In this document: positions 4,059 to 62,544 of the stretch, one piece after another
Numbering within the stretch: position 1 is the first letter of the stretch
Layout of the letters: every line of letters starts with the position of its first letter
Assembly: GCA_964016885.1 (NCBI GenBank)
Contig: OZ024753.1
Location: 14,570,001 to 14,634,000 of the forward strand
Source of the DNA: Eledone cirrhosa
Lineage: Eukaryota
DNA: 64,000 nt
Direction: 5' to 3'
Notes under the pieces: model-generated
Seen by the model: the letters and a program-made list of their open reading frames with translations, nothing else
What the model was told of the DNA's origin: nothing
The model's database searches: none
Program-made: the position numbers and the translations under genes

Positions 4059-4152
4059 TGGAACAATCTGTATGTATTTATGTATATGTATGTATACCAC
4101 TACAGGAATTGAATAATCAAAACCGTAGCGATATGTCACACATCTAATCTCT

Positions 4153-4223
4153 TATATATTTTATCTGATGAAAACGTACTTAAACACCATTGTACCTTTG
4201 AAATATGTATCATAAAATATATA
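4153..4223 (+). ncRNA. Type I minimal hammerhead ribozyme (family H2)
   Basis: Stem I TATATATTTTAT (4153-4164) / ATAAAATATATA (4212-4223); core CTGATGA 4165-4171; stem II AAACGTAC / GTACCTTT with one mismatch; GAAA 4200-4203; near-palindromic stem III; predicted cleavage after AUC (4211). Confidence 0.75.
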
Positions 4224-4501
4224 TTTTGATTATGAGAATATTTTTCATTTATTAATATTTTGAATAATATTAAATACTCCAGAAAATTTTTTACAGTTGA
4301 GTGCTTCTAATCTATTGTAAAATTGAATTTGTTGAATAATCAACGAACCATATAAACTTTGGTATATATATATGTATATATATATGAGATAAACTGTATT
4401 ACAGACAGTTTACTTTGTAGAGTTATATATATATATATATATATATATATATATATATATATATATATATATATATATATAAACATGCATATAAATATAT
4501 A

Positions 4502-4805
4502 TGAGGGTAGGCTGAAAAGTTCATAATCTGACTCTTAAAGAGTGATGCTAGATCTGTGAAATCTGACATACATTAATTTCAACTCTTCTTATTCATTGTT
4601 TCTATTATTGGCACAAGGCCAGCAATAACCCAGTGTATTACTGGTACTTTATTTTATCGACCCCGTAAGAATGAAAGGCAAAGTTAACTCTTCTTATTAA
4701 TAACTGTATTGTTTGTTTCCAGGGACTATGTTGAAAAATAAACCTCATTTGGTCATTCCATGAGAGTATCTTGGTCAGACTATGAATTTTTCAGCTGACC
4801 CATGT
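4502..4805. mobile_element. Mariner-type MITE with a SINE family C fragment inside (about 4595-4690, minus)
   Basis: Same TIRs as 1584-1782; internal piece matches SINE C 3' half. Confidence 0.65.
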
Positions 4806-4924
4806 ATAAAAACTTTAAAATAAACAGTTGTGTATGATAGAGGCAGGGAGAGTTTTGGTTGGAATCAAAAGGGTTAAGTCAGGTTGTGTGTTATATAATG
4901 TGTTAAAACTGGTGCGGTTAATCA

Positions 4925-5640
4925 AGGTAGTGTGTATATGTGTGTGTATGTGTGTGTTTCTGGGATTACCTTTGTGTGTGTGTATCTGTGTGTGTATGTG
5001 TGAGTTTCTGTGATTACCTTTGTGTAAGTATGTGTGTATTTGTGTGTGTATCTGTGTGTGTATCTGTGAGTGCTTCTGTGATTACCTTTGTGTAAGTATG
5101 TGTGTATTTGTGTGTGTATCTGTGTGTATCTGTGTGTGTATCTGTGTGTGTGTATATGTGAGTGCTTCTGTGAGTGCTTCTGTGATTACCTTTGTGTAAG
5201 TATGTGTGTATTTGTGTGTGTATTTGTGTGTGTATCTGTGTGTGTATCTGTGTGTGTATCTGTGAGTGCTTCTGTGATTACCTTTGTGTAAGTATGTGTG
5301 TATTTGTGTGTGTATCTGTGTGTGTATCTGTGTGTGTATCTGTGTGTGTATCTGTGTGTGTATCTGTGTGTGTATCTGTGTGTATTTGTGTGTGTATATG
5401 TGAATGCTTCTGTGATTACCTTTGTGTATGTATGTGTATATATGCATGTGTTTGTGTGATTACCTTTGTGTGTGTGTGTGTGTGTGTGTGTGTGTGTATG
5501 TGAGTATTTGTGAAAGTATGTGTGTGTATGTGAGTGTTTATGTGATCATCTTTGTGTATTTGCGTATATATGTGTATTTGTGAGTGTTTGTGTGATCATC
5601 TTTGTGTATGTATGTGCGTAAATGTGTAAATATTTGTAAA
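4925..5640. repeat. (GT)n-rich compound repeat with GTGATTACCTTTGTGT spacers
   Basis: GTGTGTATCT and GTGATTACCTTT motifs repeated. Confidence 0.85.
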
Positions 5641-5975
5641 TATCTATGTGTATGAGTTCAAATCTTGCTGAGGTCAATTTTGCTGTTTATCCATTTGAAG
5701 TCAACAATATAAAATACCAGTCAAGCACTGGGGTTGATTCTTCTTCTATATCTCCTTATCCTTTTCTATCCTTCCCTGGAAGAAGCTGCTGTAGTCAGCA
5801 GGATTTGAACTCAGAGCATACAATGAGTTGGGATGAAAATGTAAAGCATTCTATCCAACATTCTAATGTCTCTATCAATGATGTAAATCTTGTGTATTGA
5901 TGTTATAATGACATACATACACATGTTTTATAGATTATCAGCATTTGCTTAACCCTTTTGATATAAATCATGAGA

Positions 5976-59135: not shown

Positions 59136-59167
59136 ACAAGCACCAAATCCCAATTCAGGTTCCTATG

Positions 59168-60833
59168 TCTGGCCATACTGGGGCATGTGGGCCTTTATTC
59201 AACCCCTCCCTGGTTGACCACCTCTGCTCTCCATCTCTGGCCATACTGGGGAATAAGGGCCTTTATTTAACCCCTCCCTGGTTAACTTCCACTGCTTCCA
59301 ATCTCTGACCATAGTGGGGCATAAGGGCCTTTATTTAACTCCTCCCTAGTTGACTTCCATTGCTTCCAATCGCTGGCCATTGTGGGGCATAAGGGCCTTT
59401 ATTTAACCCCTCCCAGATTGACTTCAACTGCTTCCAATCTCTGGCCATAGTGGGGTATAAGAGCCTTTATTTAACCCCTCCCAGATTGACTTTAACTGCT
59501 TCCAATCTCTGGCCATAGTGGGGTATAAGAGCCTTTATTTAACCCCTCCCAGATTGACTTCAACTGCTTCCAATCGCTGACCATAGTGGGGCATAAGGGC
59601 CTTTATTTAACCCCTCCCTGGTTGACTTCAACTGCTTCCAATCGCTGACCATAGTGGGGCATAAGGGCCTTTATTTAATCCCTCCCAGGTTGACTTCAAC
59701 TGCTTCCAATCTCTGGCCATAGTGGGGTATAAGAGCCTTTATTTAACCCCTCCCTGGTTAACTTCCACTGCTTCCAATCGCTGACCATAGTGGGGCATAA
59801 GGGCCTTTATTTAACCCCTCCCTGGTTGACTTCCACTGCTTCCAATCGCTGACCATAGTGGGGCATAAGGGCCTTTATTTAACCCCTCCCAGGTTGACTT
59901 CAACTGCTTCCAATCTCTGGCCATAGGGGGGCATAAGGGCCTTTATTTAACCCCTCCCAGGTTGACTTCAACTGCTTCCAATCTCTGGCCATACTGGGGA
60001 ATAAGGGCCTTTATTTAACCCCTCCCTGGTTGACTTCCACTGCTTCCAATCTCTGGCCATAGTGGGGCATAAGGGCCTTTATTTAACCCCTCCCTGGTTG
60101 ACTTCCACTGCTTCCAATCTCTGGCCATAGTGGGGCATAAGGGCCTTTATTTAACCCCTCCCTGGTTGACTTCCACTGCTTCCAATCTCTGACTATAGTG
60201 GGGCATAAGGGCCTTTATTTAACCCCTCCCTGGTTAATTTCCACTGCTTCCAATCTCTGACCATAGTGGGGCATAAGGGCCTTTATTTAACCCCTCCCTG
60301 GTCGACTTCCACTGCTTCCAATCTCTGGCTATAGTGGGGCATAAGGGCCTTTATTTAACCCCTCCCTGGTTGACTTCCACTGCTTCCAATCTCTGACTAT
60401 AGTGGGGCATAAGGGCCTTAATTTAACCCCTCCCTGGTTAATTTCCACTGCTTCCAATCTCTGACCATAGTGGGGCATAAGGGCCTTTATTTAACCCCTC
60501 CCTGGTCGACTTCCACTGCTTCCAATCTCTGGCTATAGTGGGGCATAAGGGCCTTTATTTAACCCCTCCCTGGTTGACTTCCACTGCTTCCAATCTCTGA
60601 CTATAGTGGGGCATAAGGGCCTTTATTTAACCCCTCCCTGGTTAATTTCCACTGCTTCCAATCTCTGACCATAGTGGGGCATAAGGGCCTTTATTTAACC
60701 CCTCCCTGGTCGACTTCCACTGCTTCCAATCTCTGGCTATAGTGGGGCATAAGGGCCTTTATTTAACCCCTCCCTGGTTGACTTCCACTGCTTCCAATCC
60801 CTGGCCATACTGGGGCATGTGGGGCTTTATTTA
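59168..60833. repeat. 68-bp minisatellite, about 24 copies, with a 204-bp trimer repeated three times near the 3' end
   Basis: Unit CCATAGTGGGGCATAAGGGCCTTTATTTAACCCCTCCCTGGTTGACTTCCACTGCTTCCAATCTCTGG; period 59581 to 59649. Confidence 0.95.
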
Positions 60834-61300
60834 AAAGATCAGGTTGAAGAAAACAATGTCTTTAAGTAACTTCTGTAAACATTGTAAACAACCGCCAGTA
60901 TCTTTCCTATAATTAATTTACTGCTGGTTTGAAAAGTTAATTTTTTATTTTCAATTTTTTTGTTTGAAATAGAAATAATTGTCTGTTGATTATAGGAAAG
61001 TAATATTTTAATTATACACATGCACCACATATATACATATACATATTTATATATATATATATATATATATGTGTATATGTATACATACACATATGTATAC
61101 ATACACACACACACACATATGTATACATACACACACACATATATACATACACATATGTATACATACACATACACACACATATGTATACATACACACACAC
61201 ACATATATGTATACATACACACACACATATATATATATATATATATATATATATACATATACAAATACATATCATATATATATATATATATATATATATA

Positions 61301-61938
61301 TAAAGATAGACGGTAGCCACGGAGTAGGCAGACCCAGAAAAACTAAAGATAGACGGTAGCCACGGAGTAGGCAGACCCAGAAAAACTAAAGATAGACGGT
61401 AGCCACGGAATAGGCAGACCCAGAAAAACATGGGACGAGCTGATAAATTCCGACCTCACACGCTTACACCTCTCCAAGACAATGTCACTGGACCGAGACC
61501 TTTGGCGGTACTCAGTAATAGAGAAGACCCGCCTTACCTAAATACAAAGTAAAAACCTACTACAGTCAGTAGGCACCTCTATCAAAACACACCCCCGTCC
61601 CACTACCCCCACCCCACCCACACCACCCCTTTCAATGTAAAGTTATGTTGGTCCCACAACATCCAGGCCGAAAAAAATGAGATCGTGTAGGTGTCACGAC
61701 AAAAAACACACAGTCCACGCTGTAAATGTGGCCGTGTAGGTAACACGGTAAAAACCTCCCAGTTCCACACTGTAAATGTGGTTGGTGTTAGGAAGGGCAT
61801 CCAGCCGTAGAAAACCCGCCAGACAGTCCTATGCGAGCAAGACAACCACTCTTGCCTCAAGTGGGAAAACCCCCGTCCAAACCCATGCAAGCGTGGAACA
61901 CGGACGCTAAACCTGATGATGATGATGATGATGATGAT
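61301..61938 (+). mobile_element. RTE 3' fragment with triplicated 43-bp 5' end
   Basis: TAAAGATAGACGGTAGCCACGG...CCCAGAAAAAC at 61301, 61344, 61387; rest nearly identical to 46998-47550. Confidence 0.88.
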
Positions 61939-62347
61939 AAATACATATATATACATATATATATATATAAATACATATATATACATATACACATATATAT
62001 ATCATCATCATCATTTAACGTCCATCTTCCATGCTAGCATGGGTTAGATGGTTTTGTTCCATTTGTTGCGGGACCGGTTGGGAGACCTTGGCTCGCTCGT
62101 ACGAAACTGTCTCTGTATATATATAAATACACACATATATATATATAAATACACACACATATATATATATACACACATATATACATATATATATATGTAT
62201 ATACACATATATATATAAGAGAAGACATGTGTTAGTATGGTGATGTGGTCCACATGGATGAGACCTTAACAGTTCAGATTCCATTTGGAACCTGAACCCT
62301 TAAGATCTTCTAACTGGATATGTCACTATTTATAAAACAAATTTTTG

Positions 62348-62408
62348 TATTTTATCTGATGAGAGCGTACCAAAGTTTTGGCCCGCTTGAAATATATATA
62401 ATAGAATA
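62348..62408 (+). ncRNA. Type I minimal hammerhead ribozyme (family H2) within element about 62280-62540
   Basis: Stem I TATTTTAT / ATAGAATA; CTGATGA 62356-62362; stem II GAGCG / CGCTT; GAAA 62389-62392; palindromic ATATATAT; cleavage after AUA (62400). Confidence 0.72.
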
Positions 62409-62544
62409 AATATGATTTTATAAATATAATTTCCATTTATTAATATCATTGATTTTATACTCCAGAAAATCTGTTGAGTGCTTCGAATCTGTTATAAATA
62501 TATTTGTGGAATTACCAACAAATTAAATATCTCTTTACTTATAT

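What the first reader, a model, noticed from the sequence alone, without database searches (positions are those of the whole stretch)
4096..62540. A community of distinct hammerhead-bearing elements sharing Penelope-type insertion signatures
Seen: at least five sequence-distinct HHR contexts in 64 kb: H1 array (35.7-36.9 kb), H2 (4.2, 19.6/19.8, 62.4 kb), H3 (50.0 kb), the Penelope pLTR motif (x4) and a decayed pair (18.7 kb). All intact non-pLTR ones are type I with palindromic or near-palindromic stem III (ACGCGT, ATGCGCAT, ACATATGT, ATATATAT, ATATGTAT). Most abut TA-rich microsatellite, and four loci plus the decayed pair have inverted arms. Inference: one autonomous (TA)n-targeting Penelope lineage mobilises several non-autonomous ribozyme RNAs, a system standard repeat annotation would leave as unknown or simple repeat.
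Basis: partly seen in the sequence, partly recalled or inferred. Interest (0 to 1): 0.85.

Follow-up and report, generated by a model that had tools for sequence, protein, structure and literature searches.

The report
Penelope ends plus one hammerhead retrozyme
Most of the predicted self-cutting RNA motifs here are truncated ends of several ordinary Penelope-type jumping genes, but one 310-base repeat with no gene of its own carries the same two-ended insertion scar at 19 of 24 sampled sites elsewhere in the genome, so a Penelope enzyme likely copies it, probably from a circular RNA.

Summary
The hammerheads are real: 9 descriptor hits against 0.02-0.04 in shuffles. H2 (4.2, 19.6/19.8, 62.4 kb), H3 and the 18.7 kb pair are 5'-truncated ends (pLTRs) of coding Penelope-like elements of Hydra type. 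Coding relatives with 83-98% identical ends lie elsewhere in the genome; the H3 link rests on one locus. The x4 motif is the pLTR of a second-clade element. So there are many autonomous lineages, not one, and the window is typical of its genome (42,531 H2-type motifs). Only H1 is a non-coding tandem retrozyme (at least 8,200 units). Of 24 sampled loci, 20 are divergent two-armed arrays, and 19 of those have one short end and one ~26-nt tail, the Penelope double-start signature. Units are identical in 73% of cross-arm pairs but 9% of between-locus pairs, which suggests a single-unit, probably circular, template. Its partner element was not found; expression and cleavage are untested. Verdict: new members of known kinds, with unusually direct insertion evidence for a published hypothesis.

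The parts
4097..4362 (+). Solo 5'-truncated pLTR with tail, Hydra-type PLE family; type I hammerhead at 4165
   Evidence: 88-91% to the two tandem pLTRs of L320, which flank a broken ORF 53% identical to PLE-B; 667 exact-pattern hits
18621..18956 (.). Tiny inverted pair of pLTR ends of a Hydra-type family with GUAA (A13U) core; + arm carries the tail; both copies further mutated
   Evidence: GUAA in 34 of 39 arms; L282 and L203 share 1.2 kb (87%) from ribozyme to a Hydra-type endonuclease; window copy 89.5% to L282
19008..19221 (-).
   Evidence: 82% to the end of L381, which follows a GIY-YIG domain
19556..19977 (.). Two-armed inverted insertion of PLE-B pLTR (Hydra clade): - arm short end, + arm with ~85-nt tail; hammerheads at 19654- and 19789+
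   Evidence: 98% to the pLTR of L107, which holds an 821-codon open frame; 3.9-kb tandem unit in L112
31595..35265 (.). PLE-A two-armed insertion: - arm with RT and GIY-YIG (open frame 32209-34206, 5'-truncated) and ~45-nt tail; + arm 34206-35265 with short end; minimal hammerheads at 31891- and 35014+
   Evidence: 97% to L327 with an 1130-codon frame; 5,149 exact 37-mers
35660..36874 (.). H1 retrozyme insertion: 88-nt inverted arm with ~26-nt tail (35660-35747) plus 3.6 identical 310-bp units ending at the unit's internal TA run; four hammerheads with stem III ACGCGT
   Evidence: 4,177 plus 4,045 genome-wide pattern hits
36967..38219 (.). Second PLE-A insertion, ends only: - arm short, + arm with tail; minimal hammerheads at 37222- and 37904+
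49899..50089 (+). H3: short-ended solo pLTR of an old, likely Hydra-type family; hammerhead at 49953 with a 61-nt stem II domain
   Evidence: 141 pattern hits; in L274 an RT piece 36% to PLE-B starts at the inversion junction; one locus only
62289..62541 (+). Solo pLTR with tail of another Hydra-type family; hammerhead at 62356
   Evidence: 1,911 pattern hits; L270 and L289 share 1.7 kb (83%) from ribozyme to endonuclease; window copy 82-89% to them

Best explanation
The window is a nest of Penelope-like retrotransposon (PLE) insertions in TA microsatellite: five of the ribozyme contexts are ends of coding PLE families of two clades (the H3 link likely, from one locus), and the 310-bp H1 array is a non-coding retrozyme that a PLE enzyme likely inserts in trans, probably from a single circular RNA. 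Shown: the ends, their coding relatives, the architecture and the haplotype pattern. Inferred: a PLE protein binds the RNA, its GIY-YIG domain nicks both strands in (TA)n, and reverse transcription starts at two internal sites, one per strand. The two cDNAs meet at their truncated 5' ends, giving divergent arms of which one ends short and the other carries the tail between the two start sites. Most events stop early and leave a solo or inverted pLTR with its hammerhead. For H1, array transcripts are predicted to self-cleave as double hammerheads (6-bp ACGCGU duplex), monomers would be circularised, and a PLE RT would run round the circle, giving identical units on both arms.
For: Coding parents. 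Hydra diagnostics in PLE-B (RLRW, SDKT, CxCx5C, CxxC and CxH around the last E/N; against PMC8557442 section 11). H1: all 24 clusters listed on contig C1 were fetched; 20 of 24 are two-armed, all divergent; 19 of those 20 have one short and one tailed end; 21 of 22 tailed ends run into (TA)n against a 1.3% background. Arm junctions are direct (one 272-nt filler, L036), leaving no room for an ORF. Units are identical in 75% of 752 within-locus pairs and 73% of 226 cross-arm pairs, against 9% of 171 between-locus pairs. PLE-B arms: 44 of 50 end in TA, 25 short and 19 tailed. All four intact two-armed insertions in the window have exactly one tail. Frangieh 2024 (PMC11167929) shows in vitro that the PLE tail is the stretch between two internal RT start sites and that both strands are cut and extended. 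Two H1 ribozyme units co-fold into the double hammerhead as minimum-energy structure; the monomer folds at z=-4.4. An older H1-related family (927 hits) keeps the core with compensated stems and the same two ends.
Against: No partner PLE was found for H1: no significant similarity to the ends of PLE-A, PLE-B or L121 or to the regions downstream of 70 of the 150 listed GIY-YIG hits. Homogeneous arrays could also come from linear transcripts of an already homogeneous parent array, or from local homogenisation. The short end is itself a TA run, so its TA adjacency is partly built in. Cleavage is not guaranteed: 8 of 9 Xenopus retrozyme dimers did not cleave in vitro (bioRxiv 10.64898/2026.07.22.740005), and hammerhead cleavage was not needed for insertion in vitro (PMC11167929). 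About half of H1 units have a U-U pair closing stem II. The H3 link rests on 1 of 36 loci examined. Sampling was mostly from one chromosome.
Confidence: 0.8

Rival explanations
1. One reading: a single autonomous Penelope lineage (the one in the window) mobilises all the other ribozyme families, which are non-autonomous RNAs.
For: All families share (TA)n targeting, inversions and dimer-type hammerheads. Most copies of H2, H3 and the GUAA family are short and non-coding.
Against: Each has coding Hydra-type relatives, 28-62% identical to PLE-B, with their own end geometry (short end 45-75 nt after the ribozyme, tail 85 nt or more, against about 210 nt and 45 nt in PLE-A). Several further Neptune-type families exist.
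Confidence: 0.04
2. H1 is a PLE-mobilised non-autonomous element, but it is copied from linear multimeric transcripts of existing arrays; no circle is involved and the hammerhead is incidental.
For: PLEs themselves insert as partial tandems; hammerhead cleavage was dispensable in vitro (PMC11167929); a homogeneous parent gives a homogeneous copy. No RNA data were obtained.
Against: Private variants fill whole loci on both arms (308-bp units in all 16 units of L035; 11 majority haplotypes in 20 records), which needs a one-unit bottleneck. The ribozyme core and stems are kept across H1 and its diverged relative.
Confidence: 0.25
3. H1 is an ordinary satellite: a solo pLTR of a PLE not yet found, amplified in place by unequal crossing-over (the route proposed in the 2026 preprint).
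For: The preprint found 24 of 57 Xenopus retrozyme families homologous to known elements, nearly all PLE ends. Local amplification also homogenises arrays.
Against: Dispersed loci share the same two exact ends and a divergent inversion at varying unit positions, and both opposite arms carry the same haplotype; crossing-over in place does not make these. No ORF adjoins H1 in 24 loci or, as far as traced, its relative in 30 loci.
Confidence: 0.08
4. H1 is mobilised by a LINE (RTE or CR1/L2 types occur in the window), with twin-priming inversions.
For: LINEs are abundant here (44106-47151) and twin priming gives 5' inversions (recalled).
Against: Twin priming leaves one 3' end and an internal inversion; H1 loci have two outward-facing 3' ends that differ by a fixed tail, a feature described as not seen in non-LTR insertion (PMC8557442 passage).
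Confidence: 0.03

Closest known systems
Hydra-clade PLEs (Craig et al. 2021, PMC8557442)
   Same: C-terminal endonuclease without CCHH, RW and DKT motifs, CxCx5C linker, CxxC/CxH flanks, canonical hammerheads, (TA)n insertion, inverted 5' copy, tail at one end.
   Different: Units here are 3.7-3.9 kb (paper: generally under 3 kb), tails 85 nt or more (paper: 30-40 bp for PLEs in general), 42,531 motif copies, and one family has a GUAA core.
Neptune/Nematis-type PLEs and the Drosophila virilis minimal hammerhead (PMC4209133)
   Same: PLE-A has a CX4CxxC linker, CCHH-type GIY-YIG and DKSG; its ribozyme has a 2-bp helix I, 6-bp helix II, bulged 5' base and self-pairing helix III, as described for D. 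virilis.
   Different: About 1,200-aa frame with an Asn-rich N-terminal part; helix III AGAUUU pairs only with G-U; clade not fixed by a tree.
Metazoan non-LTR retrozymes (Cervera and de la Pena 2020, PMC7229834; Li et al. 2026 preprint)
   Same: H1: 310-bp low-GC tandem units, one type I hammerhead each, no ORF, thousands of copies, self-paired fold, dimer-type stem III.
   Different: H1 loci show the PLE two-start tail and divergent arms, which those papers (as far as read) do not report; no homology of H1 to a PLE end was found; circles untested.
Non-autonomous Chlamys elements such as MRC1 (PMC8557442)
   Same: Non-coding PLE passengers with multicopy head-to-tail insertions.
   Different: Those generally resemble their partner at the 3' end and most Chlamys lack hammerheads; H1 has a hammerhead and no identified partner.

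Membership tests
Type I hammerhead ribozyme | CUGANGA and GAAA..UH core closed by stems I, II, III | tested here: met
   9 hits against 0.02-0.04 in shuffles; PLE-A motif only with 2-bp stem I; 18.7 kb family has GUAA, so not met there
Type I hammerhead ribozyme | Self-cleavage after H17, here as dimer | not testable with these tools
   Double hammerhead is the predicted co-fold for H1; no assay
Hydra-clade PLE (H2, GUAA pair, H3) | RT plus C-terminal endonuclease with RW, DKT, CxCx5C, CxxC/CxH, no CCHH | tested here: met
   All motifs in the 800-aa PLE-B protein; other families by homology to it, 28-62%
Hydra-clade PLE (H2, GUAA pair, H3) | The window pieces are pLTRs of such elements | tested here: met
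   98%, 88-91%, 82-89% and 89.5% to ends of coding copies; H3 from one locus only
Hydra-clade PLE (H2, GUAA pair, H3) | Placement in the clade by RT phylogeny | not tested
   No reference sequences held
Neptune/Nematis-type PLE (PLE-A) | CX2-5CxxC linker, CCHH GIY-YIG, tandem units with pLTR | tested here: met
   CTNRKCIIC, YIGET, two His; 4,147-bp tandem units; intact frames in L327 and L328
Non-LTR retrozyme (H1) | 150-400-bp tandem units, low GC, one type I hammerhead per unit, no ORF | tested here: met
Non-LTR retrozyme (H1) | Expressed as linear and circular monomer RNA | not testable with these tools
   No RNA holder was listed
PLE-type insertion (H1) | Inverted 5'-truncated arm, tail at one end only, microsatellite target | tested here: met
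   20 of 24 two-armed, 19 of 20 short plus tail, 21 of 22 tails into TA
PLE-derived non-autonomous element (H1) | Sequence homology to the end of an autonomous PLE | tested here: inconclusive
   None to PLE-A, PLE-B, L121 or 70 GIY-YIG loci; the PLE inventory is far from complete (10,596 candidates)

The most novel reading that the evidence does not exclude
H1 is a currently spreading hammerhead circRNA that a Penelope enzyme copies by rolling-circle reverse transcription from both nicked strands at once. Each two-armed, single-haplotype, one-tail array is then a genomic print of that reaction, and H1's conserved ~130-nt end structure is a portable PLE-recruiting signal with no sequence likeness to any PLE end found. 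In addition, PLE families here fix A13U and A13C ribozyme cores, which would be active natural variants.
Probability: 0.5. Interest if true: 0.65.

Novelty: new member of a known kind. Interest (0 to 1): 0.45.

Why it matters
Which enzyme moves animal retrozymes is open: PLEs were proposed from co-occurrence, shared ribozymes and homology. H1 offers insertion-site evidence instead, at about a thousand young loci (estimate from at least 8,200 units), and a 310-nt substrate that can be put straight into the published in vitro PLE assay. The rest is ordinary PLE biology, though it shows Hydra-clade elements at tens of thousands of copies in one animal genome and that 'orphan' hammerheads in such genomes are mostly truncated PLE ends.

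Tried and rejected
A DNA search of the genome with the H1 unit returned nothing because its words are too common; patterns were used instead. Rfam over the whole window listed no hammerhead among the 150 of 366 matches shown, which were mostly microsatellite-driven microRNA models. No RNA holder was listed for H1; this says nothing on expression. Laying four contig runs of unrecorded kind showed a unit-length closed contig in three and a high-copy repeat in one; tandem DNA gives the same, so it was not used. PLE-A as parent of H2: no tblastn hit. PLE-A, PLE-B or L121 as homologue of H1: scores at shuffle level; the H1 relative scored 37 against the reverse strand of PLE-A (0 of 200 shuffles), which I attribute to TA runs but did not inspect. 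A programmed frameshift in PLE-A: rejected, the lesion is private to one locus. ORFs in L281, L283, L285 and L288 were first taken as parents of the GUAA and 62.4 families; one search showed they are not shared with other family copies, so these four rows and their entries in the identity table were dropped. A family whose ribozyme stem II resembles H1's (L391, L107, L043) was followed for a coding parent without result. The H1 relative was first noted as decayed; one search showed an intact-type core. Earlier scan notes: nothing. The paper on PLE hammerhead variants that cleave as dimers (PMC5785218) is not held, so whether A13U or A13C cores are in print is open; searches found none, and Figure 5 of PMC3088659 was not visible.
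Full report
Observation. The window lies in a 3.0-Gb animal genome (G000:C13), rich in TA microsatellite. The four pLTR motifs pass a relaxed descriptor with a 2-bp stem I and a 6-bp stem II after a bulged U. Cervera and de la Pena describe such a variant for D. virilis Penelope (PMC4209133, parts 1-2 of 4 read). Rfam misses them all at its thresholds.

The window is typical of its genome. An H2-type pattern has 42,531 matches, reversed control 0; 0.9 are expected per 64 kb and 4 are seen. 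Exact patterns count 5,149 for the Penelope pLTR, 4,177 and 4,045 for two H1 forms (the second pattern is looser, but all 100 listed hits were H1), 1,911, 667 and 141 for the 62.4, 4.2 and H3 types. Many more ribozyme families turned up in fetched loci.

PLE-A. The ORF at 32209-34206(-) has RT and GIY-YIG parts. Its full unit is 4,147 bp in a tandem locus, and other copies hold open frames of 1,130 and 1,097 codons. CX4CxxC linker and CCHH-type nuclease make it Neptune/Nematis-like (no tree). Both window insertions are two divergent arms in (TA)n, one arm ending short and the other with a ~45-nt tail.

H2 is not one non-autonomous family. The 19.6 kb pair is 98% identical to the pLTR of a second autonomous element, PLE-B: 3.9-kb unit in L112, 821-codon frame in L107. 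PLE-B has the Hydra-clade marks given in PMC8557442 (section 11 read whole, other passages seen) and hardly aligns with PLE-A. Of 50 distinct PLE-B arms held, 25 end short in TA, 19 end with tail in TA, 3 run on into the ORF, 3 are other. The 4.2 kb copy is 88-91% to the tandem pLTRs of L320, whose broken ORF is 53% to PLE-B. The 62.4 kb type is tied to a Hydra-type nuclease by two loci that share 1.7 kb. The 18.7 kb pair is tied the same way by two loci sharing 1.2 kb; its family core is GUAA in 34 of 39 arms, GAAA in 4, gapped in 1. For H3, 1 of 36 loci examined shows a Hydra-type RT piece starting at the inversion junction, with the tailed pLTR 3 kb further on the same strand behind later insertions. 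Four loci first read as parents were dropped.

H1 is different. All 24 clusters listed on contig C1 were fetched. Twenty are two-armed with both 3' ends outward; 19 of these have one arm ending at the unit's internal TA run and the other carrying a further ~26-31 nt; the twentieth has a short end and a part tail at a non-TA site; 4 are single-armed, one cut by an assembly gap. Of 22 tailed ends 21 run into (TA)n, against 1.3% of background positions. Arms meet directly, so no ORF is inside. Units are identical in 75% of within-locus pairs, 73% of cross-arm pairs and 9% of between-locus pairs; loci with 311-bp units or no full unit were left out of this count. The window's array fits: 88-nt tailed arm plus 3.6 identical units, wedged in the TA run between two PLE-A insertions. 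An older relative (927 hits) has a ~320-nt unit, the same two ends and a hammerhead with compensated stems.

Mechanism. Frangieh et al. 2024 (PMC11167929, parts 1-2 of 4 read) showed that a PLE protein cuts and extends both strands of AT-rich DNA, starts reverse transcription at two internal RNA sites, and that the genomic tail is the stretch between them. Two such cDNAs joined at their truncated ends would give the arms seen in PLE-A, PLE-B and H1 alike; that joining step is my inference. H1 has the signature without a protein, so a PLE enzyme likely acts in trans (about 0.88). One haplotype on both arms points to a one-unit template, which a self-cleaved, ligated circle would supply (about 0.55). 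Two H1 ribozymes co-fold into the double hammerhead. The three tandem PLE-A units in L105-L106 share a private frameshift, which fits the same bottleneck. Against: no partner was found, cleavage and circles are untested, and published cleavage results for such elements are mixed.

What is known. Hammerheads in pLTRs and as scattered truncated PLE ends: PMC4209133. Non-LTR retrozymes, with PLEs as suggested mobilisers: PMC7229834 (passages). Retrozymes as PLE derivatives by co-occurrence and homology in vertebrates: bioRxiv 10.64898/2026.07.22.740005 (abstract to discussion read, supplements not seen). Non-autonomous tandem PLE passengers: PMC8557442. PMC6765202, PMC13282606 and PMC3088659 were seen as passages only. 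Searches showed no paper reporting the tail and two-arm signature at retrozyme loci; subscription journals and supplements were not covered. The host looks like a cephalopod by recall of its repeats; this was not tested.

Verdict. Observation confirmed; interpretation right for one family and wrong for the rest. New members of known kinds; interest 0.45, carried by H1's insertion evidence and its testability.

Noticed in passing
L381, L391, L411 (pLTR) and L376, L396, L406; window 19008-19221(-): Neptune-type PLE families carry variant hammerhead cores: UUGAnAA with GAAA (the known U3-A8 swap) and UUGAAAA with GCAA (A13C); with the GUAA family this gives two family-level changes at position 13 in one genome.
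   Followed up: partly
window 17329-17952 and 18293-19120: An 88-94% identical fold-back that duplicates a SINE, a TA run and the ends of two different PLE families; likely a later rearrangement.
   Followed up: partly
window 44106-47151(+): Near-complete RTE-like LINE (label recalled) with endonuclease, RT and a PHD finger inside the RT region (Pfam PF00628, residues 430-473); fragments at 12249-12950 and 53283-53627.
   Followed up: no
L105-L106 (G000:C1:14.38-14.40 Mb): Three tandem PLE-A units share one private frameshift absent from six other loci that cover the site.
   Followed up: partly
L391:1740-1940, L107:109-918, L043; fragment at window 54160-54186(-): A common family with a hammerhead whose core and stem II nearly match H1's but with a 4-bp stem III and a Hydra-like tail; possible source of H1's ribozyme; no coding parent found.
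   Followed up: partly
L036:1899-2170: A 272-nt unrelated, GC-richer filler between the two H1 arms; possibly captured RNA or DNA.
   Followed up: no
L089, L090, L226, L282, L386; L243, L262, L303; L113, L198: Further hammerhead families with palindromic stem III (ACUAGU, ACCAUGGU, ACCGAUCGGU, ACUAAUUAGU, AGUACU); some may be other retrozymes.
   Followed up: no
window 55713-56142, 20118-20254, 48701-48782, 50125-50170: A short hairpin element of about 100 nt between TA runs, repeated in the window and often beside PLE ends.
   Followed up: no
window 38880-39640(+): C-terminal fragment of another LINE-like frame starting right at the end of a TA array.
   Followed up: no
window 35960-36269, runs X1, X3, X6: Three runs labelled as three different organisms each hold one variant-free unit-length contig of H1 at depth 10-15; contamination, diet or shared presence cannot be told apart.
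   Followed up: no
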